Virus genome (UHGV): UHGV-0778869
Origin: a virus
Strand: one strand, 5' to 3'
DNA: 23,187 nucleotides
Part shown: one piece after another, positions 1,642 to 16,540 of the stretch
Layout of the letters: every line of letters begins with the position of its first letter
Position numbering within the stretch: position 1 is the stretch's first letter
Notes under the pieces: model-generated
Seen by the model: the letters and a program-made list of their open reading frames with translations, nothing else
Told to the model about the DNA's origin: nothing
Database searches by the model: none
Translations under genes and position numbers: made by a program

Positions 1642-1814
1642 TTCCTCGCACGATGTCTTAGCCACCGGATATCCCACAGGTGAGCCGTGTAGTTGAAGGT
1701 TTTTACGTCAGATTCTTTCGGGATTGGCTTGCGTTTATTTCTGGAGCGTTTCGTTGGAAGGTATTTGCAGTTTTCGCAGATTATGTCGGTGATGCTTCGT
1801 CGCTGTCGTCTCAT
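1638..1814 (-). CDS. ninE: NinE-like small basic protein (58 aa)
   Basis: Product [58 protein letters not shown] resembles lambda NinE as recalled. Confidence 0.75.
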
Positions 1815-2341
1815 GCCGCCATCCTGACGCCCTGCCCGATCGCCATCAATGCCGCTTTGGATACGGTAGTAAACATCCGTCGAGGACTGATGAACGGTCG
1901 CCAAATCAGCAGCATGGAGCCTTTGCTGTTTCCCTTCTTCTCCAGCCCTGTCGATGGTTCGATAAAATTAATCCGTCCATCAGTGATAATACGAACTTCG
2001 TCAACACTCTCCAGAGCCTTGCTGAACCATCCGACTGACATATCCTCTGGCACAAGCATCACTACCGTCTGTCGCTGTTGTATGCACTGCTCAGCGGCTT
2101 TTTCTACCCACGGCCTGATATTGCTGTACGGTGGGTTATTCCAGATTGCACCGTGGCTTACCCACTCAGAATTGAGCGCGTCGTCGGCCTCAGTTAGCCA
2201 GTGAGCGCACAGAGCATTTTTGTCGCTCGCAGCTGAGTCCAGCCAGAATCCAAACTCAATATCCAGTGCATCAAAAAGCCAAAGCGGCGTTTGCCAGCAG
2301 TCTCTAACTTCTTTTGGTGTTTCTGATTTATGCTTAATCAT
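1811..2341 (-). CDS. Phage Dam-family DNA N6-adenine methyltransferase (176 aa)
   Basis: N-terminal [18 protein letters not shown]...LDSAAS and catalytic NPPY ([10 protein letters not shown]) motifs; ATGA overlap with the upstream HNH gene. Confidence 0.8.
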
Positions 2342-2865
2342 TCAACCCTCGCATATTGTCCGTGATATTTGTTGATAGCCTCACTGGCAACCAAACCAGC
2401 AAGCTCAAGATCTTCATAGAACCCAAAATGCAACCGGCCAAAATCTGTGCGCACTTGAACGGCCCATTTATTTTTTTGCTTGTTCCATAAAACATTTTTT
2501 ATTCCAGAACGGCTATTGCACTTAGTTTTCTGATTTCGGCTGTTTGCTATCCGGCTTGCCTCCCTAAGATTTTTTGGGGAATTGTCCAGCCTGTTTCCGT
2601 TAATATGGTCAATATTTTTCAATGGCATTCTTTTGTTGTGCAGCGCAAAAACAACTACGTGAACAAACATCTGAATGCCTGCAAAACACACCTGTCTATA
2701 CCCAGATCCATTTATCGATGTTTTAATTTCATCTCCGGCCCGGTGGCTGTGGTTGGGGTGTTTTAGCGAGTCCTTTTTGTATCTGACTGTATCTCCGTCT
2801 AAATACAGATAATCCTCAATAAGCCGATACCTATCTGACGCTGGCGTATTTGATTTGATAGTCAT
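2338..2865 (-). CDS. HNH endonuclease with AP2-like DNA-binding domain (about 175 aa)
   Basis: HINGNRLDNSPKNLREASRIANSRN motif (HNH_3 type) followed by KNKWAVQVR...GRLHFGFYEDLELAG (AP2-like); start MTIKSN at 2865 overlaps the ninB stop (ATGA). Confidence 0.75.
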   Translation of the reverse strand: MTIKSNTPASDRYRLIEDYLYLDGDTVRYKKDSLKHPNHSHRAGDEIKTSINGSGYRQVCFAGIQMFVHVVVFALHNKRMPLKNIDHINGNRLDNSPKNLREASRIANSRNQKTKCNSRSGIKNVLWNKQKNKWAVQVRTDFGRLHFGFYEDLELAGLVASEAINKYHGQYARVE

Positions 2866-3302
2866 GCAGCCCGATCTCCCCATCGCGCTTTCCATTCGAG
2901 AGCCAGTCGCGCTTCGTCTGACCACTTAACGCCACGCTCTGTACCGAATGCCTGTATAAGCTCTAATAGCTCCGCAAATTCGCTTACACGCATCCTGCTG
3001 GTTGACTGGCCTATTACCACAAAGCCATTCCCGGCAAGGTTAGGAACAACGTCCTGCTGCTTTAATGCAGCTGTAAAAACGCACTTCCAGCTTTCTGCAT
3101 CCAGCCAGCGACCATGCCATTCAACCTGACGAGAGACGTCACCAAGGCAAGCCCAAAGCTTTCGATTCTGGTCTAAGCTGCGGTTGCGTTCCTGAATGGT
3201 TACTACGATTGGTTTGGTTGGGTCTGGAAGGATTTGCTGTACTGCGTGAATAGCATTTTGCTGAAGTGCTGGAGATCGAATTTCAAAGGTCAGTTTTTTC
3301 AT
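2862..3302 (-). CDS. ninB: NinB / Orf recombination mediator (146 aa)
   Basis: From internal ATG at 3302: MKKLTFEIRSPALQQNAIHAVQQILPDPTKPIVVTIQERNRSLDQNRKLWACLGDV..., near-identical to lambda NinB as recalled; SD GAGAGGGAAG upstream. Confidence 0.9.
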   Translation of the reverse strand: MKKLTFEIRSPALQQNAIHAVQQILPDPTKPIVVTIQERNRSLDQNRKLWACLGDVSRQVEWHGRWLDAESWKCVFTAALKQQDVVPNLAGNGFVVIGQSTSRMRVSEFAELLELIQAFGTERGVKWSDEARLALEWKARWGDRAA

Positions 3303-6565: not shown

Positions 6566-7282
6566 ATGGAAAATAAAAAATCACTGACGACAGAACAGCT
6601 CGAAGACGCTAAGCGGCTTAAGGCTTTGTATGAGTCAAAAAAGAAAGAATTGGGAATAACCCAATACTCAATCGCTGATGAACTGGGTATCACCCAAGGA
6701 GCGGTAGGGCATTATCTTAATGGCAGAAACGCGCTAAACGTTGAGGTCGCATCTGGTTTTGCACGTTTGTTGCAAGTCTCAATTGCTGATTTTAGCCAGT
6801 CAATTGCTGCCAAGGTTGCAGAACAGGCAGAAAGCCTTAAGAGCGATGCCAACGTAAGGTATGCAGGGGAATACAGAGCAGGAAAGAGGTATCCGGTGTT
6901 AAGCAGTATCCAGGCTGGCTCGTGGTGTGAAGCATGCGAACCATACACCATTAAAGACATAGATGTTTGGCTTGAGTCTGACGCGCATATTCAAGGTAAT
7001 GCGTTCTGGCTTAAAGTGGAAGGTGATTCAATGACGGCACCGGTTGGGTTAAGCATTCCAGAGGGAACATTCGTTCTTTTCGATACCGGAAGGGAGGCGA
7101 TCAACGGCAGCTTGGTCATAGCAAAACTTTCTGACTCTAACGAAGCAACATTCAAGAAGCTGATAATCGACGGCGGAAATAAATACCTCAAGGGACTTAA
7201 TCCTGCATGGCCTCTCGTGCCAATCAATGGAAACTGCAAGATTATAGGCGTTGCAATTGAGACAAAACTAAGGCTGGTTTGA
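6566..7282 (+). CDS. cI: CI/C2-type prophage repressor (HTH plus S24 LexA-like autopeptidase, 238 aa)
   Basis: N-terminal HTH (ITQYSIADELGITQGAVGHYLNG); Ala-Gly cleavage site (SIQAGSW), catalytic GDSMTAP and FKKL; C-terminal half close to P22 C2 as recalled. Confidence 0.9.
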   Translation: MENKKSLTTEQLEDAKRLKALYESKKKELGITQYSIADELGITQGAVGHYLNGRNALNVEVASGFARLLQVSIADFSQSIAAKVAEQAESLKSDANVRYAGEYRAGKRYPVLSSIQAGSWCEACEPYTIKDIDVWLESDAHIQGNAFWLKVEGDSMTAPVGLSIPEGTFVLFDTGREAINGSLVIAKLSDSNEATFKKLIIDGGNKYLKGLNPAWPLVPINGNCKIIGVAIETKLRLV

Positions 7283-8241: not shown

Positions 8242-8514
8242 ATGACAGTAGTCATTACATATCTGGCTGACGATAACGCCAGAAATCGCCGCAGAGCACG
8301 CAGACAGGCTCAACGTGAACAGGCAATGCAAGAGCAGCGACTGGCGCGAAAAATTGCGCTAAAGCTCTCTGGTTGCGTCAGAGCAGATAAAGCAGCATCA
8401 CTCGGAAGCCTTCGCTGCAAGAAGGCAGATGAATGCAGTGGAAGTATTTGCCTGCCAAACGTAGCCATTTACTCGGCAGGCTACCGGAAATCAAAACAAC
8501 TGACAGCCAGGTAA
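8242..8514 (+). CDS. N-like transcription antiterminator with arginine-rich motif (P22 gp24-like, 90 aa)
   Basis: GGAGG SD; ARM NARNRRRARRQAQREQA near the N-terminus; C-terminal ...YSAGYRKSKQLTAR resembles P22 gp24 as recalled. Confidence 0.8.
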   Translation: MTVVITYLADDNARNRRRARRQAQREQAMQEQRLARKIALKLSGCVRADKAASLGSLRCKKADECSGSICLPNVAIYSAGYRKSKQLTAR

Positions 8515-8517
8515 GTG

Positions 8518-8742
8518 ATGAATCAGACATACATTCCATCATGCTTGAGAAATCTGCCAAAGCAGAAAGCAAAGCCCCGCAAGCAAGCCATAAAGGACGC
8601 TAAGGCAGAGGTTATTGATCAAGCAATACAATTGCTCAGGGAGGAGTTAAGAAGTGGCAAGCTCGAAGGAATGATGATGCCCTATCAGCGCGGATATCTT
8701 TCGGCGATTAGTAAGCTGGAAGTATTGAAGAGTGAATTATGA
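8518..8742 (+). CDS. Hypothetical protein (74 aa)
   Basis: ATG 8518 after AGGTAAG; MNQTYIPSCLRNLPKQKAKPRKQ...; ATGA overlap with the next gene. No family recognised. Confidence 0.5.
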   Translation: MNQTYIPSCLRNLPKQKAKPRKQAIKDAKAEVIDQAIQLLREELRSGKLEGMMMPYQRGYLSAISKLEVLKSEL

Positions 8743-9431
8743 ACTATCTGGAATTTCCGGATGGTTCATTGTTTTGGCAGCAAACCACTTATTTGAGAGG
8801 AATTAATATGTCATCAATCCGCTTAACTACGAGAATGAAAGAGAAAATCGCTCGTAACGCTTTAATTAAGTCTGGGGTTTTCACTGAGCTTGAAGAAGTA
8901 ACAAAGTTAAAGAGCCAGCTTGCACTTGACGCCAGAGTTATTGCGTTTGGCGGTAAAAAGAAAACTGAGGAAGTGGATCAGTTATCATCCAAGTTAGTAG
9001 CTATAAGTGAAGAACTTGAAAAACTGGGATGTTCATTTTACTCATACGATGTTCGTTCTACTTCAATTTATCTGACTGTATCTGGCAGAAGGGTTGGATG
9101 GCTTTCATATGGGGAAGACGGCAACGGCGAAGATATATTGCTCCCTACTCCGACCAAAGATAAATGCATGTTTGACGCAGAACACGAAATAACAAAAAGG
9201 TTTGATGAAATCTGCGCATTGCAACAAAAACTTGAAGCCAAGAAAAAGGATATCGAATCAAATGTATGGGCTGCTTTGAACTCAGTCACAACAGTTAAGC
9301 GACTTATTGAAGTTTGGTCTGAAAGCAAAGAATTGCTACCAAAAGAAGCAGATAAAGCAAGTACAGCACTTCCTGCTTTACGGGTAGAAGATTTGAATAA
9401 GATGATTGGACTTCCTTCCGAGGCCGCATAG
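8739..9431 (+). CDS. Hypothetical protein (230 aa; alternative start 8808)
   Basis: ORF with coupled start; internal ATG 8808 has a GAGAGG SD; stop lies inside the terminator hairpin. No family recognised. Confidence 0.55.
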   Translation: MNYLEFPDGSLFWQQTTYLRGINMSSIRLTTRMKEKIARNALIKSGVFTELEEVTKLKSQLALDARVIAFGGKKKTEEVDQLSSKLVAISEELEKLGCSFYSYDVRSTSIYLTVSGRRVGWLSYGEDGNGEDILLPTPTKDKCMFDAEHEITKRFDEICALQQKLEAKKKDIESNVWAALNSVTTVKRLIEVWSESKELLPKEADKASTALPALRVEDLNKMIGLPSEAA

Positions 9432-9448: not shown

Positions 9449-9565
9449 CACTAACAACAGAATAAACACAGCACTGTGTATTCATTCCAACGAGTGAATA
9501 CACGGAGCAATGTCGCTCGTAACTAAACAGGAGCCGACTTGTTCTGATTATTGGAAATCTTCTTT

Positions 9566-9594
9566 GCCCTCCAGTGTGAGGGCAATTTTTTTTG
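9566..9594 (+). terminator. Intrinsic terminator immediately upstream of the next gene's RBS
   Basis: Stem GCCCTC / GAGGGC with loop CAGTGT, then AATTTTTTTTG; GGAGG SD follows at 9597. Confidence 0.7.
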
Positions 9595-9605
9595 ATGGAG
9601 GATAT

Positions 9606-10574
9606 ATGAGTGAAGTAACAGATTTAGTTGTTATTGAAAAAGCAAATGCAATGACTGTATTTCAGTCTGCCGACCAGATTGAAGAAATCCTTCAAAAGGT
9701 TGAACGTGAAGTTATGTCCTTTGTGCCTGATATCACAACGGCAAAGGGCAGAAAGGAGATCGCTTCTCTGGCGTATAAAGTTGCGCAGACGAAAACATAT
9801 CTCGATGGTCTTGGCAAAGACCTTGTTGCTGAACTGAAGGAAATTCCAAAGCTAATTGATGCCAACCGCAAGACAGTGCGTGATCGCCTTGATGAGCTGA
9901 AAGCCAAGGCGCGCCAGCCTCTTACTGATTATGAGGAGGAACAGGCACGGATTAAAGCCGAAGAAGAAGCTAAGGCAGCAGCTGAAGCTCTCGCAAAGCA
10001 AATTGAGTCTGACCATGAAATAGCGATTTTGATGGATCGCGAATTTGACCGCCAAAGAGAAGAGGCAAGACTCAAAGCGGAGCAGGAAAAGCGAGAGCAT
10101 GAAGAACGCTTAAAAAGAGAAGCTGAAGAGAAAGCCAGAGCAGAAGCCGAAGCAAAGGCAAAAGCCGAAATTGAAGCAGCAGCAAGGCGAGAAGCAGAAG
10201 CTAAGGCCGCAGCGGAACGTGCAGAGCGTGAACGTATTGAAGCCGAGCAACGAGCACAGCGCGAAGCAAAAGAGGCAGCAGAACGAGCTGAAAGAGAAAA
10301 GCAGGCGGCAATTGAAGCAGAACGCCGAAAAGCACAGGAGGAGGCTGAACGAATCCGGCGCGAGGCTGAAGCAAAAGAGCAAGCAAGAATAGCAGAAGAA
10401 AAAAGAATCAAGGACGAAGAAGAGCGTAGAGCAAAGGATAAAGCTCACCGGAAAGAAGTAAATAACAAAATACTTGCTGACCTTATCAAGGTTGGCGCAT
10501 CAGAAGATGTTGCTAAAAATATCATAACAGCCATCGTAAAAGGCGAAGTATTCGCAACAAAAATAACCTACTAA
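9606..10574 (+). CDS. Hypothetical protein (322 aa): N-terminal globular domain, long Glu/Ala/Lys/Arg-rich coiled-coil, short C-terminal domain
   Basis: ATG 9606 with GGAGG SD; the low-complexity centre (EAEAKAKAEIEAAARREAEAK...) generates several spurious antisense ORFs; sits upstream of the Sak4-like gene. Confidence 0.7.
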   Translation: MSEVTDLVVIEKANAMTVFQSADQIEEILQKVEREVMSFVPDITTAKGRKEIASLAYKVAQTKTYLDGLGKDLVAELKEIPKLIDANRKTVRDRLDELKAKARQPLTDYEEEQARIKAEEEAKAAAEALAKQIESDHEIAILMDREFDRQREEARLKAEQEKREHEERLKREAEEKARAEAEAKAKAEIEAAARREAEAKAAAERAERERIEAEQRAQREAKEAAERAEREKQAAIEAERRKAQEEAERIRREAEAKEQARIAEEKRIKDEEERRAKDKAHRKEVNNKILADLIKVGASEDVAKNIITAIVKGEVFATKITY

Positions 10575-10598: not shown

Positions 10599-10745
10599 AT
10601 GATTTACGCAATCGCGGGAGGCGCTCGCATGGGTGCCTTCCAACTAAATGAATCTTTACTTGAACGAATCACCCGTAAATTACGTGACGGATGGAAACGA
10701 CTCATCGACGTACTTAATCAGCCAGGAGTTCCAAAAAATGGATAA
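10599..10745 (+). CDS. Hypothetical small protein (48 aa)
   Basis: ATG 10599 with AAGGA SD 7 nt upstream; MIYAIAGGARMGAFQLNESLLERITRKLRDGWKRLIDVLNQPGVPKNG. Below ORF-track cut-off; found by hand. Confidence 0.4.
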   Translation: MIYAIAGGARMGAFQLNESLLERITRKLRDGWKRLIDVLNQPGVPKNG

Positions 10746-10851
10746 AACACTTATGGCTATCCAGACTAAATTCACTATCGCCGCTTTTATTGGCGATGAA
10801 AAGATGTTTCGTGAGGCCGTCGAAGCCTACAGAAAATGGAGGTCAAAATGA
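10738..10851 (+). CDS. Hypothetical small protein (37 aa)
   Basis: ATG 10738 overlaps the previous ORF end; MDKTLMAIQTKFTIAAFIGDEKMFREAVEAYRKWRSK; the upstream extension of this frame (10648) overlaps the 48-aa ORF. Confidence 0.4.
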   Translation: MDKTLMAIQTKFTIAAFIGDEKMFREAVEAYRKWRSK

Positions 10852-11044: not shown

Positions 11045-11746
11045 ATGGGAACTGCGACATTAATACTCGGTGAATCTGGCACCGGAAAATCAACCAGCAT
11101 GAGAAATATCAATCCAGAGGAAGCAATACTTATAAAACCAATAGGCAAGCAGCTTCCATTTAAATCAAAAGACTGGCTGGCATGGGATGCCAGAGCAAAA
11201 AAAGGAACCGTAGTTACCACTGACAAATGGGACGTAATAGTTGCCGTAATTAAGCGTGCTCACGAATACGGGAAAAGAATCGTTATTGTTGATGACTTCC
11301 AGTATGTGATGAGCAATGAGTTTATGCGCCGCTCAGAAGAAAAATCGTTTGATAAATTCACTGAGATAGGCCGCCACGCATGGGAGGTGATTAAGGCTGC
11401 ACAGGATGCACCTGATGACCTGAGAGTCTATTTTCTTGCGCACACCGAAGAAACCCCTATGGGGCGTGTGAAAATGAAGACTATCGGCAAAATGCTGGAC
11501 GAGAAAATCACTGTCGAAGGCATGTTTACTATAGTTCTTCGCACCCTTACCCGCGATGACCAGTTCTTTTTCACCACGAAAACAACGGTGCAGACACTGT
11601 TAAATCCCCAATGGGAATGTTTGATTCTAATGAGATTGATAACGATCTCTCTTTCGTCGATGCCACTGTTTGTGATTACTACGGCATCAATAATGTTCAT
11701 CAAATTAAGGAAAACGCCGCATGAGCAACGTGATTTTTACTTATAA
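11045..11746 (+). CDS. Sak4-like RecA-fold ATPase (AAA_24-type), probably frameshifted near 11560-11590; intact-frame end would be 11724
   Basis: Walker A GESGTGKST, Walker B IVIVDDF. After ...DQFFFTTK the in-frame tail looks non-protein-like, while the -1 frame reads NNGADTVKSPMGMFDSNEIDNDLSFVDATVCDYYGINNVHQIKENAA and ends in a stop that overlaps the next ATG. Confidence 0.7.
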   Translation: MGTATLILGESGTGKSTSMRNINPEEAILIKPIGKQLPFKSKDWLAWDARAKKGTVVTTDKWDVIVAVIKRAHEYGKRIVIVDDFQYVMSNEFMRRSEEKSFDKFTEIGRHAWEVIKAAQDAPDDLRVYFLAHTEETPMGRVKMKTIGKMLDEKITVEGMFTIVLRTLTRDDQFFFTTKTTVQTLLNPQWECLILMRLITISLSSMPLFVITTASIMFIKLRKTPHEQRDFYL

Positions 11747-12308
11747 CGAAGAAGCAGCACTGACCGCAGGGCAAGGTGGTTTTATTAACGAAACTGGTGC
11801 TCATATCATTACCATTACTGAAGCAGAACTAAAGCAATCAGAAAAAGGAGCCAAATTTATTGAGTTTTCTGGCGAATCTGACGACGGACGTAAAATCCAA
11901 TATCTTAGCGTCTGTGTTCAGAAAAATGACGGAACGGAAAACAAATTTGGCGCAAATGTCGTTCACGCCATGATGGGGTGTGCCGGGATTGGACAATTAA
12001 CGCAACATATGGTTTCCGCCAGTAAATTTGTTGCTCCTGAGTTTCATGGAAAGAAAATCGGGTTAGTGCTCCAGAAAGTATTAACCACAAACAAAAAGAC
12101 TGGCGCAGACAGCTACCAGATGGAAATACGCATCCCGTTTATTGCACAAACAGGTCAAACCCTTAAAGAAAAGGCGGAAGGCAAGCAACCAGAAACTATC
12201 GCCAACATGGTTGCCAGCCTCAAAGATAAAGACAATCGCTCTAAAAACGTAAGCCAGAATCATGCAGATGATTATGGTTACAGCCAGAACGATTACCCTC
12301 CTTTCTGA
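11721..12308 (+). CDS. Putative ssDNA-binding partner of the Sak4-like ATPase (195 aa)
   Basis: Immediately downstream of the ATPase; acidic C-terminal tail ending ...DDYGYSQNDYPPF, reminiscent of SSB tips (E. coli SSB ends DDDIPF). OB fold not verifiable by eye. Confidence 0.5.
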   Translation: MSNVIFTYNEEAALTAGQGGFINETGAHIITITEAELKQSEKGAKFIEFSGESDDGRKIQYLSVCVQKNDGTENKFGANVVHAMMGCAGIGQLTQHMVSASKFVAPEFHGKKIGLVLQKVLTTNKKTGADSYQMEIRIPFIAQTGQTLKEKAEGKQPETIANMVASLKDKDNRSKNVSQNHADDYGYSQNDYPPF

Positions 12309-12331: not shown

Positions 12332-12628
12332 ATGCCAGCGCCTCTGTATGGTGCGGATGACCCGCGCAATTGCTCCGGTAGCTCCAAGGCGGAGGTGCTG
12401 GAAAATATCAAAAACAATTTCGACGCGTTTCTTGCTCTGACACCAGAAACAAAAGCAGAACGGATGTACCGACGCGATATACAACTCGCGCTAAAACAGG
12501 AGAAGGACCGAACAAACGAAACAGCAATGAGACCGTTGCGAAAAGCGACAATAGACAAATTCCCTGAATATATCGACCCGCGCCTGCGTAATTACCGATC
12601 ACGCTATGGCGCTATCAGTAATGACTGA
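12332..12628 (+). CDS. Hypothetical protein (98 aa)
   Basis: ORF with weak AAGG SD; [34 protein letters not shown]...; no family recognised. Confidence 0.45.
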
Positions 12629-12638
12629 GGAATTTACC

Positions 12639-12803
12639 ATGAGAGGACTTGCATACAATCCCGGCATTCTTCAGGCAGAAATGATTATTCGCCAACGCGT
12701 AAAGCCAATGCCATCGAGAGAGGAATTACTTAAGAGAAATAGTTTCGGTTCTGTTAATGACAACAAATATCTGAATGCGATGTGGCGGAGTGGGAAGAAA
12801 TGA
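12639..12803 (+). CDS. Hypothetical small protein (54 aa)
   Basis: ATG 12639 with GAGGA SD 8 nt upstream; [34 protein letters not shown]... Confidence 0.45.
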
Positions 12804-13231
12804 AACAAATGTCACTAATTGAGATGGATGGATTTCTGAAAGGTAAATGCATCCCACGAGATTTAAAGGTTAACGAAACAAACGCTGAATATCTGGTGCG
12901 TAAGTTCGGTGAACTTGAATCAAAACTAGAAACGGCGTTGCGGGAGTGTCGTTCTGCTGGAATCACGATTGATAACCTTGAGGCTAAATGCGCGAAGATG
13001 GCTGCTGAAAATACCTCACTTAAGCAATCTGAGAAGGAATTTAATGACTTTTGTCGTGAGGAGTTTAGCGAATGGGAAGATGATGTTACTGAAACCCCAG
13101 CCACCGATGCTTTTCTGGCTGAAGTACGGGCGCAGGGGGTAGAGATGTTTGCTGACCATCTGTTGTGCCCAGACCTTGATGACACTATCCGTGACTTTGC
13201 TTCCCAGCTTCGCAAAGGAGGCAACCAATGA
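12800..13231 (+). CDS. Hypothetical acidic protein (143 aa)
   Basis: ATG 12800 overlapping the previous stop (ATGA), GGAG SD; predicted helical/coiled-coil. Confidence 0.55.
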
Positions 13232-13845
13232 GCGAGATTGACTATCAGGCATTGCGTGCTAAGGCAGAAAAAGCAACGTGTGGCGAGTGGTCGCTCGAAT
13301 ATGGAGAGGGCCGATTTGATGGTGATGATGCGCTAATTCATCGCGAGGCTGCTGGATATCTTCCCATTTGCAGAATTGAAGGAGCGCATCCTGAAAGCGG
13401 TTTCGATGAAGATTTCCAAATGGAACAGCAGGCCAATGCTGAATTCATCGCCGCAGCCAATCCGGCTACCGTCTTGGCGCTGCTTGGCGAGCTGGAAGCA
13501 GCAGAGAACAACCTTATTGATAGTGAATGCCATGTTGCTGAACTGGAAGAAGCGCTACGCGATAAGCAGGCGTTACTTGAAGCATCAGAAAAGCGCATAG
13601 CAGAACTGGAAGCCGAACTCGTAAGCCAAACTTACAAGTTGAACGAGCTATCGGGCAACTCTCCGGTAACTCCGGATGGTTGGGTTGTAGTGCCGAAGGA
13701 GTTAACACCGGAAATGATGAGAGCCGTTCAGATTAGAAGTGAGCTTGGAGGGTATGCCACTTCCAATCTATCTGGTGCATACAATATGTTTTCTGAGTTC
13801 TGGAATGTTGCTGTCTCAGCTGCGCCTAAGGTGGATGATTTATGA
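13228..13845 (+). CDS. Ead/Ea22-like protein (205 aa)
   Basis: Strong AAAGGAGG SD; N-terminus [22 protein letters not shown]... and central coiled coil resemble the Ead/Ea22-like family of lambdoid prophages as recalled. Confidence 0.55.
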   Translation: MSEIDYQALRAKAEKATCGEWSLEYGEGRFDGDDALIHREAAGYLPICRIEGAHPESGFDEDFQMEQQANAEFIAAANPATVLALLGELEAAENNLIDSECHVAELEEALRDKQALLEASEKRIAELEAELVSQTYKLNELSGNSPVTPDGWVVVPKELTPEMMRAVQIRSELGGYATSNLSGAYNMFSEFWNVAVSAAPKVDDL

Positions 13846-13991
13846 ATCTATATCGCTGCCCATTCTGTGGTTCCACTGTGCTTAACATCGGATACTCATT
13901 CAGTATCAGAGGGAAAATGCGCTATGTGTCATGCAAATGTGGTGCCCAAGGACCAGAAAAACGAACTAGATCTGAAGCGATTTCTTCATGA
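13842..13991 (+). CDS. Small zinc-ribbon protein, Lar-like (restriction alleviation family) candidate (49 aa)
   Basis: MNLYRCPFCGSTVLNIGYSFSIRGKMRYVSCKCGAQGPEKRTRSEAISS; CPFCG...CKCG motif; ATGA overlap with the upstream gene. Found by hand. Confidence 0.45.
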   Translation: MNLYRCPFCGSTVLNIGYSFSIRGKMRYVSCKCGAQGPEKRTRSEAISS

Positions 13992-14000
13992 AATAGTCGA

Positions 14001-14138
14001 ATGAAAGTATGGGTTTATGATCCAGAAACAATATTAAACGTTGAAGAGCGCAGGAGAACAGAAGTCTATATTCATAACCTTAATGAAGATGGATTTACAC
14101 CAGTGCTCGTAAAGGCTACTCCGCAGGAGGTGAAGTGA
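14001..14138 (+). CDS. Hypothetical small protein (45 aa), weakly supported
   Basis: ATG 14001, no clear SD; MKVWVYDPETILNVEERRRTEVYIHNLNEDGFTPVLVKATPQEVK. Confidence 0.25.
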   Translation: MKVWVYDPETILNVEERRRTEVYIHNLNEDGFTPVLVKATPQEVK

Positions 14139-14416
14139 TGGACTCCTTCGCGAAATATACGATTATTGACTGGATAGCATTCCTTCAGGTTTTGCTCATC
14201 TGGTTTTATATGGCTTACAGGAGTGGACAGTGGATTGTCAGTGTAGCCTGTAGCAGGGGATGGCGTTGGTGGAACCGAAAGAATAAAAAAGCACTGGCAT
14301 TGGATTCGTTTTACGAAGCATTCAATCTTAACAGTCTTCAGCCTGGTTCTGTCATTGTAGTCACCACTCAAAGCGGCATGACCATTCAGATTCATAAACC
14401 AAAAGAGGAAAAATGA
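14138..14416 (+). CDS. Small membrane protein (92 aa) with one N-terminal transmembrane helix
   Basis: ATG 14138 with AGGAGG SD; hydrophobic IIDWIAFLQVLLIWFYMAY then basic stretch RGWRWWNRKNKK. Confidence 0.55.
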   Translation: MDSFAKYTIIDWIAFLQVLLIWFYMAYRSGQWIVSVACSRGWRWWNRKNKKALALDSFYEAFNLNSLQPGSVIVVTTQSGMTIQIHKPKEEK

Positions 14417-14502
14417 TGTGGCCTATATGTGTTAATTGCGGACGGATGTGCCTATCTGGATGGTGCCGAAAGTGCGACAAATGCACGAAGAAAAGACAAT
14501 AA
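14413..14502 (+). CDS. Cys-rich mini-protein (29 aa), zinc-ribbon-like
   Basis: AGAGGA SD; MMWPICVNCGRMCLSGWCRKCDKCTKKRQ; start overlaps the upstream stop. Confidence 0.3.
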   Translation: MMWPICVNCGRMCLSGWCRKCDKCTKKRQ

Positions 14503-14536
14503 CAATCCTCGCACTCGCGGGGATTTCTTTTATCTG

Positions 14537-14563
14537 AACTCGCTAGGGCGAGTTTTGTTTTAT
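14537..14563 (+). terminator. Intrinsic terminator
   Basis: Stem AACTCGC / GCGAGTT with loop TAGG, then TTGTTTTAT; the next gene's SD follows. Confidence 0.7.
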
Positions 14564-14574
14564 GGAGACAAGAA

Positions 14575-14919
14575 ATGTCAGATTTGGCTATGAAGGTTTT
14601 GAAATGGCAATCGACTGGCGATGTTGGCATTAGTAGCGCAACTCTTGCCTCAATCGCATGTGGACTGGAAAAGAATATCTATGGTCATCACTTCGGCGCT
14701 CCCCATGACGCAGCAGACTTCCGGCGATGCGTTGCACTTGTTGAGCAGATTCCAGAAATCAGAGATTCATTCGACAAGGTTGCAAAGCGCGTTCCGGCAT
14801 TCAAAGGCATCCTCACCGAATGGGATTCCCTCGTTGCTCTGTTGAAGTCTGAAATGAAGATACACCGAAACAAAGCACCAGAGACTTACAGAAGAATTAG
14901 CGAGTTACGCAAGGACTAA
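14575..14919 (+). CDS. Hypothetical protein (114 aa)
   Basis: ATG 14575 with GGAGA SD; MSDLAMKVLKWQSTGDVGISSATLASIACGLEKNIYGHHFGAPHDAADFRR...; no family recognised. Confidence 0.55.
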   Translation: MSDLAMKVLKWQSTGDVGISSATLASIACGLEKNIYGHHFGAPHDAADFRRCVALVEQIPEIRDSFDKVAKRVPAFKGILTEWDSLVALLKSEMKIHRNKAPETYRRISELRKD

Positions 14920-14977
14920 CCACAGCCTAACACTCGATGAGGCCAGTTCATTTCTCAAGATATCCAGACATACCATC

Positions 14978-15001
14978 GCCGCATCAATGCGGCTTTTTCT
15001 T
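14978..15001 (+). terminator. Intrinsic terminator upstream of xis
   Basis: Stem GCCGCA / TGCGGC with loop TCAA, then TTTTTCTT. Confidence 0.6.
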
Positions 15002-15013
15002 GCGTGTAATTGC
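15000..15013 (+). promoter_or_regulatory. Candidate pI CII-binding site TTGC-N6-TTGC (TTGCGTGTAATTGC)
   Basis: Same motif as at pRE; sits just 5' of the xis ATG so that a dependent transcript would start inside xis, as for lambda pI. Confidence 0.6.
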
Positions 15014-15025
15014 GGAGACTTTGCG

Positions 15026-15244
15026 ATGTACTTGACACTTCAGGAGTGGAACGCTCGCCAGCGACGCCCAAGAAGCCTTGAAACAGTTCGTCGATGGGTG
15101 CGCGAGTGCAGGATATTCCCTCCTCCGGTTAAGGATGGAAGAGAGTATCTGTTCCACGAATCAGCGGTAAAGGTTGACTTAAATCGACCAGTAACAGGTA
15201 GCCTTTTGAAGAGGATCAGAAATGGGAAGAAGGCGAAGTCATGA
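15026..15244 (+). CDS. xis: Excisionase Xis (72 aa)
   Basis: MYLTLQEWNARQRRPRSLETVRRWVRECRIFPPPVKDGREYLFHESAVKVDLNRPVTGSLLKRIRNGKKAKS matches lambda Xis as recalled; overlaps int by 23 nt. Confidence 0.95.
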   Translation: MYLTLQEWNARQRRPRSLETVRRWVRECRIFPPPVKDGREYLFHESAVKVDLNRPVTGSLLKRIRNGKKAKS

Positions 15245-16292
15245 GCGCCGGGATTTACCCCCTAACCTTTATATAAGAAACAATGGATATTACTGCTACA
15301 GGGACCCAAGGACGGGTAAAGAGTTTGGATTAGGCAGAGACAGGAGGATAGCAATCACTGAAGCTATACAGGCCAACATTGAGTTATTTTCAGGACACAA
15401 ACACAAGCCTCTGACAGCGAGAATCAACAGTGATAATTCTGTTACGTTACATTCATGGCTTGATCGCTACGAAAAAATACTCGCCAGCAGAGGAATCAAG
15501 CAGAAGACACTCATAAATTACATGAGCAAAATTAAAGCAATAAGGAGGGGTCTGCCTGATGCTCCACTTGAAGACATCACCACAAAAGAAATTGCGGCAA
15601 TGCTCAATGGATATATAGACGATGGCAAGGCGGCGTCAGCCAAGTTAATCAGATCAACACTGAGCGATGCATTCCGAGAGGCAATAGCTGAAGGCCATAT
15701 AACAACAAACCCGGTCGCTGCCACTCGCGCAGCAAAATCAGAGGTAAGGAGATCAAGGCTTACGGCTGACGAATACCTGAAAATTTATCAAGCAGCAGAA
15801 TCATCACCATGTTGGCTCAGACTTGCAATGGAACTGGCTGTTGTTACCGGGCAGCGAGTTGGTGATTTATGCGAAATGAAGTGGTCTGATATCGTAGATG
15901 GATATCTTTATGTCGAGCAAAGCAAAACAGGCGTAAAAATTGCCATCCCAACAGCATTGCATGTTGATGCCCTCGGGATATCAATGAAGGAAACACTTGA
16001 TAAATGCAAAGAGATTCTTGGCGGAGAAACCATAATTGCATCTACTCGTCGTGAACCGCTTTCATCCGGCACAGTATCAAGGTATTTTATGCGCGCACGA
16101 AAAGCATCAGGTCTTTCCTTCGAAGGGGATCCGCCTACCTTTCACGAGTTGCGCAGTTTGTCTGCAAGACTCTATGAGAAGCAGATAAGCGATAAGTTTG
16201 CTCAACATCTTCTCGGGCATAAGTCGGACACCATGGCATCACAGTATCGTGATGACAGAGGCAGGGAGTGGGACAAAATTGAAATCAAATAA
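15222..16292 (+). CDS. int: Tyrosine integrase, lambda Int type (356 aa)
   Basis: MGRRRSHERRDLPPNLYIRNNGYYCYRDPRTGKEFGLGRDRRIAITEA... ...HELRSLSARLYEKQ...LLGHKSDTMASQYRDD: essentially lambda Int as recalled, with the R-H-R-Y catalytic region. Confidence 0.95.
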   Translation: MGRRRSHERRDLPPNLYIRNNGYYCYRDPRTGKEFGLGRDRRIAITEAIQANIELFSGHKHKPLTARINSDNSVTLHSWLDRYEKILASRGIKQKTLINYMSKIKAIRRGLPDAPLEDITTKEIAAMLNGYIDDGKAASAKLIRSTLSDAFREAIAEGHITTNPVAATRAAKSEVRRSRLTADEYLKIYQAAESSPCWLRLAMELAVVTGQRVGDLCEMKWSDIVDGYLYVEQSKTGVKIAIPTALHVDALGISMKETLDKCKEILGGETIIASTRREPLSSGTVSRYFMRARKASGLSFEGDPPTFHELRSLSARLYEKQISDKFAQHLLGHKSDTMASQYRDDRGREWDKIEIK

Positions 16293-16540
16293 TGATTTTA
16301 TTTTGACTGATAGTGACCTGTTCGTTGCAACAAATTGATAAGCAATGCTTTTTTATAATGCCAACTTAGTATAAAAAAGCTGAACGTGAAACATTAAAAA
16401 TCATTAATATCAATGCATTACAATATCTTTAGTCTAAAAAATAGACTACATAATGCGACAAAACACAACATATCCAGTCACTATGAATCAACCACTTAGA
16501 TGGTATTAGTGACCTGTAACAGAGCATTAGCGCAAGGTGA
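16293..16540. other. attP: P' arm, 15-bp core (16366-16380, reverse complement of GCTTTTTTATACTAA) and P arm
   Basis: P' arm and core match lambda attP as recalled; the P arm (16476-16525) is similar to lambda's but diverged. Confidence 0.85.

What the first reader, a model, noticed from the sequence alone, without database searches (positions are those of the whole stretch)
13842..14502. Cluster of tiny Cys-rich zinc-ribbon proteins plus a small membrane protein upstream of xis: candidate anti-restriction island
Four tightly packed genes sit here, two with overlapping stop/start: a 49-aa CPFCG...CKCG protein resembling Lar-family restriction-alleviation proteins, a 45-aa ORF, a 92-aa single-TM protein and a 29-aa CxxC...CxxC...C peptide. 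This early-expressed region next to int/xis is the classical place for host-takeover and anti-defence genes, and the hand-found ORFs are likely to be missed by size-thresholded gene callers.
Basis: partly seen in the sequence, partly recalled or inferred. Interest (0 to 1): 0.5.

Follow-up and report, generated by a model that had tools for sequence, protein, structure and literature searches.

The report
Broken Lar gene, membrane protein, conserved microprotein
This stretch of a P22/lambda-like phage holds three ordinary early accessory genes rather than four, one of them broken by a stop codon, and the only new thing is that the 28-29-residue cysteine-rich ORF is a real, conserved and mostly unannotated phage microprotein of unknown function.

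Summary
The ORFs exist at the stated coordinates, but there are three genes, not four. The 49-aa and 45-aa ORFs share one frame. They are the two halves of a 98-aa Lar/RalR-family gene, cut by TGG->TGA at 13989-13991, which replaces the family's conserved Trp. I found no other copy with TGA: all 151 complete E. coli genomes matching the surrounding 61-mer differ from it by one base, and all 34 IMG/VR matches have TGG. The 92-aa ORF is a DUF4752 protein (Pfam 121.7 bits) with one predicted membrane helix. The 29-aa ORF is a real gene. Relatives of 24-29 aa occur in lambdoid, Deseoctovirus, Skatevirus and Stephanstirmvirinae phages, with saturated synonymous change and pN/pS 0.13. The invariant core is MWPICxxCGRxCxxxWCxxCDK, it has a Shine-Dalgarno site, and it abuts the stop of whatever gene lies upstream. 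It matches no Pfam, PHROG or NCBIfam family and is rarely annotated. It ends at a conserved linker with two terminator-like hairpins, the same linker that follows lambda ea8.5. All of this lies in the distal pL operon, upstream of xis and int. The three genes assort independently among phages. Only Lar homology points to anti-restriction, and that gene is disrupted here, so an "anti-restriction island" is not supported.

The parts
13228..13845 (+). Ead/Ea22-like gene (205 aa), the upstream neighbour. Its TGA stop overlaps the Lar-like start (ATGA at 13842-13845).
   Evidence: PF13935 at 3.7e-20; sequence.
13842..14138 (+). One Lar/RalR-family gene (98 aa in relatives), here split by an in-frame TGA into ORF1 (13842-13991, 49 aa) and ORF2 (14001-14138, 45 aa).
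   Evidence: Ungapped alignment to Sf6 gene 20. Intact 98-aa alleles with the same junction to DUF4752 occur in IMG/VR and E. coli loci. The intact allele scores 58.7 bits on TIGR03655 and 35.8 on PF14354; ORF1 alone scores 45.5 and 25.3.
13989..13991 (+). Premature stop codon TGA replacing TGG (Trp50), the conserved Trp of the family's C-terminal WNxR motif.
   Evidence: RalR has ERWNKR at this place. All 34 IMG/VR matches have TGG. All 151 complete E. coli genomes matching the surrounding 61-mer differ from it by exactly one base, and the four inspected have TGG.
14138..14416 (+). DUF4752 gene (92 aa): N-terminal TM helix around residues 8-26, the invariant motif GWRWWNR, and a small C-terminal domain. 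The start overlaps the Lar-like stop (TGATG), with AGGAGG at 14125-14130.
   Evidence: PF15944 at 1.3e-35 and 121.7 bits, phrog_667 at 4.5e-38. Alignment of 13 homologues. Hydropathy. The AF2 model is low confidence, pLDDT 68.6.
14413..14502 (+). Five-Cys microprotein gene. It gives 29 aa from ATG 14413 or, more likely, 28 aa from ATG 14416, where all homologues start (MWPIC...). GAGGA lies at 14405-14409, and the start overlaps the DUF4752 stop.
   Evidence: tblastn hits in unrelated phages. There are more than 15 distinct variants of 24-29 aa, with pN/pS 0.13 in this frame only. One phage record annotates the exact 29-aa sequence as hypothetical (HK106).
14503..14574 (+). Conserved linker holding two tandem intrinsic-terminator-like hairpins (14504-14525 and 14536-14555, each followed by a T-rich tail) and the ribosome-binding site of the next gene (GGAG at 14564).
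   Evidence: Terminator scan. Fold z-scores of -3.9 and -4.8. Homologous to lambda 29284-29362, between ea8.5 and lambdap35. Present in about 1778 of 5426 complete E. coli genomes.
14575..14919 (+). Downstream 114-aa gene of unknown function, the next module after the linker.
   Evidence: phrog_1229 at 1.9e-51.
15026..16292 (+). Lambda-type xis (15026-15244) and int (15222-16292), the end of the early-left operon.
   Evidence: PF07825 at 7e-41; PF00589 and PF09003.

Best explanation
The region is the distal accessory part of the N-antiterminated early-left (pL) operon of a P22-like/lambdoid temperate phage. It lies just before a conserved terminator linker, xis and int. It holds a chain of three translationally coupled but evolutionarily independent accessory genes.

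1. A Lar/RalR-family zinc-ribbon gene, 98 aa in relatives, carries a TGG->TGA change at codon 50 that I found in no other copy. At best it yields a 49-aa fragment lacking the conserved WNxR end (inferred inactive).

2. A DUF4752 single-pass inner-membrane protein, predicted N-out/C-in, of unknown function.

3. A 28-aa microprotein with core MWPICxxCGR(M/K)CxxxWCxxCDK. It is translated from its own Shine-Dalgarno site next to the upstream stop codon. It most likely folds around one Zn2+ held by the CxxC-x8-CxxC cysteines (C5, C8, C17, C20) and acts by binding a host or phage macromolecule.

Shown here: gene structure, family memberships, the absence of the stop codon from every other copy compared, purifying selection on the microprotein, modular assortment and operon context. 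Inferred: zinc binding, loss of Lar function, membrane topology, and any role in host takeover. The confidence given is for the anatomy and the independent-module reading; the zinc-knuckle mechanism on its own I would put near 0.55.
For: Operon context: cI, N, Kil, a Sak4-like annealase, SSB, Abc2, Ea22-like genes, then this cluster, xis and int all lie on the + strand, with no promoter-like site nearby.

One Lar gene with a stop not found elsewhere.

DUF4752.

Microprotein is real. Across 11 lineages, synonymous sites are saturated (pS about 0.9) against pN 0.12. pN/pS is 0.13 in this frame and 0.29-2.6 in the other five frames. In codons 13-22, which lay outside the search pattern, W16, C17, C20, D21 and K22 are invariant. 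A C-terminally anchored pattern retrieves essentially the same loci, all with MWPIC. A relaxed metagenome pattern always recovers the unconstrained ATG, R10 and D21-K22. Length stays at 24-29 aa, and a Shine-Dalgarno site is present in every context.

Zinc-ribbon reading. The cysteine spacing is CxxCG-x8-CxxC. Single-sequence AF2 gives pLDDT 80.7 with beta bridges. The best, non-significant, structure and sequence matches are all zinc modules, for example the RNA polymerase III RPC2 ribbon VCDKCGLMGYSGWCTTC.

Modularity. Of 83 DUF4752 loci, 54 are followed by the microprotein; the others are followed by an ASCH-domain gene or directly by the linker. Intact Lar-like genes are followed by either DUF4752 or another gene. 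Elsewhere the microprotein follows TraR/DksA-like, Ea22-like or unrelated 180-226-aa genes.
Against: There is no direct evidence of translation, zinc binding or any phenotype for any of the three genes. The TGA could be a sequencing error, or could be partly read through; near-cognate tRNA-Trp would restore the ancestral residue. In either case the Lar-like gene would be functional. Within the lambdoid lineage the microprotein gene is about 97-100% identical at the DNA level, and the few singleton changes are mostly non-synonymous, including C21R and C21Y. Selection is therefore visible only between lineages. The structural and sequence matches to zinc modules are not significant (E >= 0.3). 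The homologues were found by protein-guided searches, which favours conserved residues; I partly controlled for this by analysing positions outside the search patterns.
Confidence: 0.8

Rival explanations
1. One reading: a four-gene anti-restriction or anti-defence island. Lar-like, ORF2, the membrane protein and the Cys peptide would cooperate to protect incoming phage DNA from type I restriction-modification systems.
For: ORF1 belongs to the Lar family. The genes are translationally coupled and sit in the early operon, where lambda and P22 keep host-takeover genes such as Abc2 and Kil. No Ral homologue was found elsewhere in the operon, so Lar would be the only candidate.
Against: ORF1 and ORF2 are one gene, interrupted at a conserved residue. 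The three genes assort independently among phages. Neither DUF4752 nor the microprotein matches any family or paper linking it to restriction. In C1 and KFS-SE2 the microprotein sits in a short operon between the endolysin and head-morphogenesis genes, not in an early anti-defence cluster. Genes at the distal end of pL are transcribed late in the early phase, which is poor timing for protecting DNA at entry (inference).
Confidence: 0.08
2. The Lar-like gene is functional here. Either the TGA is a sequencing or assembly error, or low-level UGA readthrough by tRNA-Trp regenerates the wild-type 98-aa protein, or the 49-aa zinc-ribbon fragment retains activity.
For: It is a single G->A change not found in any of the roughly 185 comparators, which fits either an error or a very recent mutation. 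ORF1 keeps all four Cys and still passes the TIGR03655 cutoff. Readthrough of UGA would insert Trp, the ancestral residue (established knowledge of near-cognate decoding; inference).
Against: The lost Trp lies in the most conserved C-terminal motif, shared with RalR. The Pfam score falls below the gathering threshold. Readthrough yields are typically low.
Confidence: 0.25
3. The 29-aa ORF is a Cys-rich leader peptide. Its translation would control the two terminators immediately downstream, attenuating transcription into orf114-xis-int.
For: A short ORF ends exactly where a tandem terminator linker begins. The same ORF-then-terminator layout occurs in C1, KFS-SE2 and L126.
Against: In other lineages (Tr1, L098, L100, L103 and others) the microprotein gene is followed directly by the next gene with no terminator. 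Selection acts on the whole peptide (W2, P3, G9, R10, W16, D21, K22), not only on Cys codons. The same linker follows unrelated genes, such as lambda ea8.5, ASCH-domain genes and Sf6 gene 20. I found no alternative antiterminator pairing.
Confidence: 0.04
4. The 29-aa ORF is a chance ORF or the remnant of a longer gene, and the real feature is the overlapping alternative-frame ORF (14429-14593) that mEp213 annotates as gp28.
For: Some phage records annotate the other frame. Several singleton variants destroy a Cys or the stop codon.
Against: The alternative frames have pN/pS of 1.4-2.6, or stops in 10 of 11 lineages. The alternative ORF runs through both terminator hairpins. The microprotein keeps its start, its length of 24-29 aa and a Shine-Dalgarno site across phage genera.
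Confidence: 0.02

Closest known systems
Lar / RalR of the E. coli K-12 Rac prophage (TIGR03655, PF14354)
   Same: Shares the N-terminal CPFCG knuckle, a second Cys pair and the C-terminal EAxxxWNxR motif in intact alleles. Identity is 33% over residues 2-53. Both sit in an early-left prophage region near xis/int.
   Different: The window copy has a stop in place of the conserved Trp. Intact relatives carry a 44-aa C-terminal extension that the 64-aa RalR lacks. No RalA-like sRNA was detected (Rfam found nothing). RalR is reported both as a restriction alleviator and as a non-specific DNase toxin (PMC4041452, PMC6158711), so function cannot simply be transferred.
DUF4752 (PF15944, phrog_667)
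   Same: Full-length match at 121.7 bits, with the invariant D11, W12 and GWRWWNR motif shared with Escherichia and Enterobacter homologues.
   Different: Nothing differs; it is an ordinary member. The family itself has no known function and no literature.
Lambda ea8.5, the gene in the same slot
   Same: It occupies the same position, immediately upstream of the same conserved double-hairpin linker and before xis/int. From memory (Kwan et al. 2013, not checked here), Ea8.5 homologues have a zinc-finger-containing fold and unknown function.
   Different: No sequence similarity to the microprotein or to DUF4752. Ea8.5 is 93 aa.
Minimal zinc ribbons or knuckles, such as the C-terminal ribbon of the RNA polymerase III subunit RPC2
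   Same: CxxCG-x8-CxxC spacing and local motif similarity (ICkhCGRMClseWCrkC against VCDKCGLMGYSGWCTTC). The Foldseek top hits are all zinc modules.
   Different: The matches are not significant (E 0.34 and E >= 3). The microprotein is a free-standing peptide of 24-29 aa with a fifth invariant Cys (C12) and an invariant MWP N-terminus.
Phage T4 Stp, a 26-aa anti-restriction peptide (from memory, not checked here)
   Same: Comparable size. It is a precedent for a phage peptide of about 25 residues acting on a type I-related restriction enzyme.
   Different: No sequence resemblance. As I recall, Stp has no Cys motif. There is no evidence that the microprotein touches restriction enzymes.

Membership tests
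Lar/RalR family (TIGR03655 anti_R_Lar; PF14354 Lar_restr_allev) | Profile score above the curated cutoff | tested here: met
   ORF1 scores 45.5 bits on TIGR03655 (cutoff 39.6), covering profile positions 1-50 of 55. It fails Pfam, at 25.3 against 28.6. The intact allele passes both, at 58.7 and 35.8 bits.
Lar/RalR family (TIGR03655 anti_R_Lar; PF14354 Lar_restr_allev) | Zinc-ribbon cysteines: CPFCG plus a second Cys pair | tested here: met
   C6, C9, C31 and C33 are present in ORF1 and align to the RalR CPFCG...CNGC.
Lar/RalR family (TIGR03655 anti_R_Lar; PF14354 Lar_restr_allev) | Conserved C-terminal WNxR motif and an uninterrupted ORF | tested here: not met
   Codon 50 is TGA instead of TGG, so the product stops before WNSR.
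Lar/RalR family (TIGR03655 anti_R_Lar; PF14354 Lar_restr_allev) | Alleviation of EcoKI restriction or enhancement of modification, or DNase toxicity | not testable with these tools
   Activity is known only for Rac Lar/RalR (PMC6158711, PMC4041452).
DUF4752 (PF15944) | Full-length profile match above the gathering score | tested here: met
   121.7 bits against 27, covering profile positions 2-84 of 84; phrog_667 at 4.5e-38.
DUF4752 (PF15944) | N-terminal hydrophobic helix followed by a basic Trp-rich motif | tested here: met
   Kyte-Doolittle peak of 1.78 at residues 8-26; GWRWWNR is invariant in 13 sequences.
Zinc ribbon / rubredoxin-like knuckle (for the 28-29-aa microprotein) | Two CxxC knuckles separated by a short beta hairpin | tested here: met
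   C5-x2-C8 and C17-x2-C20 are invariant in more than 15 variants, with 8 residues between the knuckles.
Zinc ribbon / rubredoxin-like knuckle (for the 28-29-aa microprotein) | Significant structural or profile similarity to a known zinc module | tested here: inconclusive
   AF2 gives pLDDT 80.7, but the best Foldseek E-value is 3. The best PDB profile search E-value is 0.34. There is no Pfam, PHROG or NCBIfam hit.
Zinc ribbon / rubredoxin-like knuckle (for the 28-29-aa microprotein) | Metal binding | not testable with these tools
   Needs peptide chemistry.
Transcription-attenuation leader peptide | The ORF is always followed by a terminator, and only the regulatory codons are conserved | tested here: not met
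   Several lineages have no terminator after the gene. The whole peptide is under purifying selection.
Known defence or anti-defence gene families | Profile match to a catalogued system | tested here: not met
   PADLOC gives no hit for any of the proteins. No dedicated anti-defence library was available.

The most novel reading that the evidence does not exclude
The MWPICxxCGR(M/K)CxxxWCxxCDK peptide is a previously unrecognised family of free-standing phage zinc-knuckle microproteins of 24-29 aa. It would be among the smallest conserved phage proteins. It moves as a mini-cassette between temperate and virulent enterobacterial phages and acts as a host-takeover or counter-defence effector by binding a specific host protein or nucleic acid.
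Probability: 0.12. Interest if true: 0.65.

Novelty: new member of a known kind. Interest (0 to 1): 0.33.

Why it matters
Most of the cluster is routine lambdoid accessory DNA: a Lar-family gene and a DUF4752 gene.

Three things are useful.

1. The candidate anti-restriction gene is truncated here, so this phage should not be scored as carrying an intact Lar.

2. RefSeq/PGAP splits intact 98-100-aa copies of this gene into a "partial Lar pseudogene" plus a 45-47-aa hypothetical protein in all four records inspected. That inflates pseudogene and orphan counts.

3. A 24-29-aa five-Cys peptide is under clear purifying selection across several phage genera, yet it is missing from the family libraries and from most annotations. 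It is cheap to synthesise and test for metal binding, toxicity and pull-down partners. It is also a concrete example of conserved phage coding capacity below gene-caller size limits.

Tried and rejected
- **Exhaustive phmmer.** I ran a 30-aa translation against 1.84 billion cluster representatives. The only hit was a spurious repeat protein. The 29-aa peptide is in the collection, but it is mis-clustered under an unrelated 480-aa TolC-like representative.
- **Scans of species-representative genomes.** Two degenerate-pattern scans of 185,579 genomes found nothing.
- **Rfam.** Run at gathering thresholds, it found nothing in the window.
- **Structure and sequence searches.** Foldseek against PDB and a PDB profile search gave only non-significant zinc-module hits for the microprotein. 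No Lar-family structure turned up by sequence.
- **DUF4752 model.** The AF2 model was too weak to fold-search, at pLDDT 68.6.
- **Literature.** Searches for DUF4752 and for the MWPIC motif found nothing relevant.
- **PGAP "pseudogene" label.** I first took the PGAP label "Lar..., missing C-terminus" in E. coli 13KWH46 and others as evidence that the stop allele circulates. Reading those sequences showed intact TGG ORFs, so this is an annotation artefact.
- **The 49-aa database entry.** The exact 49-aa protein in the database is a truncation at a contig end, not a nonsense allele.
- **Linker covariation.** I looked for it using locus L126. Its lowest-energy fold pairs the two hairpins with each other, so I make no claim.
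- **Homology to other small zinc proteins.** I checked the microprotein against lambda Ea8.5 and Rac YdaE and found none.
Full report
**Context.** The window is a P22-like/lambdoid temperate phage genome. Reading along the + strand, it encodes the following.

| Coordinates | Feature |
|---|---|
| 6566-7282 | cI-type repressor |
| 8242-8514 | N |
| 8739-9431 | Nmad5-domain protein |
| 10648-10851 | Kil |
| 11045-11746 | Sak4-like annealase |
| 11721-12308 | SSB |
| 12332-12628 | Abc2 |
| 12782-13845 | two Ea22-like genes |
| 13842-14502 | the region in question |
| 14575-14919 | 114-aa gene of unknown function |
| 15026-15244 | lambda-type xis |
| 15222-16292 | int |

cII, a DnaB-like helicase, Dam and NinG lie on the other strand upstream. 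A tailspike and injection proteins lie beyond int. No promoter-like site occurs in 12500-16500.

**Observation.** All four ORFs exist at the stated coordinates, and the overlapping start/stop codons are real. ORF1 (13842-13991) and ORF2 (14001-14138) are in the same frame, though. The region aligns without gaps to Shigella phage Sf6 over 523 bases at 96.4% identity. There a single 100-aa gene (gene 20, "Lar-like restriction alleviation protein") spans both ORFs. The only disruptive difference is TGG in Sf6 against TGA in the window at 13989-13991. The correct count is three genes, one of them interrupted.

**How common is the stop?**
- A pattern allowing either base found 34 matches in IMG/VR-derived loci, all with TGG. 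They encode 98-100-aa proteins, and ten have exactly the window's junction to DUF4752.
- In 5,426 complete E. coli genomes, 151 carry the surrounding 61-mer. None is identical and all differ by one base. The four I read have TGG.
- The exact 49-aa product exists in the protein collection only as a truncation at a contig end.
- I therefore found the TGA in no other copy; it is either a mutation private to this genome or a sequencing error.

**An annotation artefact.** RefSeq/PGAP annotates the intact copies I inspected as "Lar family..., incomplete, missing C-terminus" plus a separate 45-47-aa hypothetical protein. This is an artefact and at first misled me.

**Lar membership.**
- ORF1 passes TIGR03655 (45.5 bits, cutoff 39.6, profile positions 1-50 of 55). 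It fails Pfam PF14354 (25.3 against 28.6).
- The intact allele passes both, at 58.7 and 35.8 bits. phrog_599 matches at 3.6e-9.
- Against the one characterised member, K-12 Rac RalR/Lar, the intact allele is 33% identical over residues 2-53. The alignment includes CPFCG and EAxxxWNxR, and the window's stop replaces that Trp.
- RalR is now annotated as an endodeoxyribonuclease toxin with the RalA sRNA antitoxin (PMC4041452). It is still cited as an anti-restriction protein as well (PMC6158711).
- The anti-restriction reading rests on distant homology to a protein whose own function is reported in two ways, and the gene is truncated here. UGA readthrough by tRNA-Trp would recreate the ancestral protein at a low level. 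That is inference only.

**DUF4752.** The 92-aa ORF (14138-14416) is a full-length DUF4752 member: PF15944 at 121.7 bits and phrog_667. The family is narrow, with 47 clusters, nearly all from Escherichia or Enterobacter. It has an invariant D11-W12 and a GWRWWNR motif. A hydrophobic peak at residues 8-26 (1.78) is followed by seven basic residues and no acidic ones. That supports one membrane helix with the C-terminus inside the cell. AF2 gives only a low-confidence model of a helix followed by a beta hairpin, pLDDT 68.6. It has no PADLOC hit and no literature.

**The microprotein: relatives.** tblastn of the 29-aa ORF found near-identical copies in lambdoid and P22-like phages. It also found 64-76% identical copies in unrelated phages: Escherichia phage C1 (Deseoctovirus), Salmonella KFS-SE2 (Skatevirus) and Citrobacter Tr1 (Stephanstirmvirinae, 154 kb). 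At most of those sites no CDS is annotated.

**The microprotein: pattern scans.** Degenerate DNA patterns recovered 77 IMG/VR contigs and 43 metagenome contigs, with more than 15 distinct peptides of 24-29 aa. The shared core is M-W-P-I-C-x-x-C-G-R-(M/K)-C-(W/L)-x-x-W-C-x-(K/R)-C-D-K.

**The microprotein: selection.**
- Across 11 lineages the synonymous difference is saturated (pS about 0.92) against pN 0.12.
- 18 of 22 third codon positions vary, against 6-7 first or second positions.
- The other five reading frames give pN/pS of 0.29-2.6 or contain stops.
- The searches were protein-guided, so I checked positions outside each pattern. Codons 13-22 keep W16, C17, C20, D21 and K22.
- The C-terminal pattern retrieves the same loci, all beginning MWPIC.
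- The relaxed metagenome pattern always brings the unconstrained ATG, R10 and D21-K22 with it.

**The microprotein: translation signals.** Every lineage has a purine-rich Shine-Dalgarno site 5-8 nt upstream. The start abuts or overlaps the stop of whatever gene precedes it. Homologues start at the second ATG (14416), so 28 aa is the likelier product.

**The microprotein: prior knowledge.**
- No Pfam, PHROG, NCBIfam or PADLOC family matches it.
- The exact 29-aa sequence is annotated as hypothetical in phage HK106 and in a few metagenome-assembled phage (MAG) records.
- It is absent from 185,579 species-representative genomes.
- It is present in about 179 of 5,426 complete E. coli genomes.

**The microprotein: likely mode of action.** The spacing CxxCG-x8-CxxC is that of a minimal zinc ribbon. 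Single-sequence AF2 is fairly confident (pLDDT 80.7) and shows beta bridges. The best structural and sequence matches are all zinc modules but are not significant. I infer a one-zinc knuckle peptide that works by binding a macromolecule. Its target is unknown.

**Modularity.**
- Of 83 DUF4752 loci, 54 are followed by the microprotein. The rest are followed by an ASCH-domain gene or directly by the linker.
- Intact Lar-like genes are followed by DUF4752 in some phages and by another gene in others.
- The microprotein follows a TraR/DksA-like zinc-finger gene, an Ea22-like gene, a membrane protein, or a 180-192-aa protein in other phages.
- In C1 and KFS-SE2 it ends a short operon between the endolysin and head-morphogenesis genes.
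- These are independent cassettes, not a co-inherited system.

**The boundary.** The microprotein's TAA stop is the first triplet of a conserved 72-nt linker (14503-14574). The linker holds two terminator-like hairpins (14504-14525 and 14536-14555) and the next gene's ribosome-binding site. The same linker lies in lambda at 29284-29362, between ea8.5 and lambdap35. It is also in HK022, Sf6, Stx phages and P22-like Salmonella phages, and in about 1,778 of 5,426 E. coli genomes. It is a typical mosaic boundary sequence.

**The attenuator rival.** An ORF followed by terminators suggests an attenuation leader peptide. That idea fails for three reasons. Other lineages lack the terminators. The whole peptide is conserved, not just the Cys codons. 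The linker follows unrelated genes elsewhere.

**Verdict.** Lar family membership, the single-TM protein and a real but overlooked mini-gene all hold. An anti-restriction island does not, and its only candidate anti-restriction gene is broken. The new element is a small conserved five-Cys phage microprotein family of unknown function.

Noticed in passing
L003 1689-1985; L004 1864-2160; L193 483-785; L194 483-785 (RefSeq E. coli records): PGAP annotates intact 98-100-aa Lar-like ORFs (TGG, no stop) as a partial "Lar family" pseudogene plus a separate 45-47-aa hypothetical protein (WP_249827599.1, WP_174213934.1, WP_000870097.1). All four records inspected show this mis-split. The 45-aa "protein" is on record for 135 contigs.
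   Followed up: yes
window 14503-14574: A conserved linker with two tandem terminator-like hairpins and the next gene's ribosome-binding site. It is homologous to lambda 29284-29362 (between ea8.5 and lambdap35). It is found in about a third of complete E. coli genomes and in 314 phage records. It looks like a recombination boundary between accessory-gene slots.
   Followed up: partly
window 14429-14593 (+); L002 2808-3047: An alternative-frame ORF overlaps the microprotein gene and both terminators. mEp213 annotates it as gp28. The substitution pattern argues that it is spurious.
   Followed up: yes
window 14978-14993: A third terminator-like hairpin (GCCGCATCAATGCGGC followed by TTTTTC) lies between the 114-aa gene and the real xis start at 15026. 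The mechanical ORF list starts xis 13 codons too early, at 14987.
   Followed up: no
window 8739-9431 and 9510-10574: An Nmad5 (nucleotide-modification-associated domain 5) protein and a 354-aa protein with no Pfam match (phrog_1376) lie just after N in the early-left operon. They may form a DNA-modification or counter-defence module.
   Followed up: no
window 1811-2925 (-): A phage Dam N6-adenine methyltransferase and an HNH endonuclease gene lie side by side in the nin region. A methyltransferase is another route to restriction evasion in this phage.
   Followed up: no
protein cluster of P0049/P0050: The 29-aa peptide is clustered under an unrelated 480-aa TolC-like representative in the protein collection. 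Searches of cluster representatives therefore cannot find it.
   Followed up: partly
L142 / L022 and L116 / L035: There are two variant microprotein alleles. In one the stop codon is lost (TAA->TCA), giving 38 aa. In the other a recombination junction falls after codon 17 and replaces the second knuckle. Singleton C21R and C21Y alleles also exist.
   Followed up: no
L098, L107, L112, L118, L122, L144, L151 (about -220 to +450 around the microprotein): In another prophage lineage the microprotein gene sits between a TraR/DksA-type zinc-finger gene and a gene starting MDYSKLSDFEINKLV..., again close to an excisionase and integrase.
   Followed up: partly
L206 and L237 (VOFL01000127.1, a 5.36-Mb contig): One bacterial chromosome carries two copies of a divergent microprotein allele (MWPICRHCGRKCWLEWCKRCDKPS), each followed by a terminator-like hairpin.
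   Followed up: no
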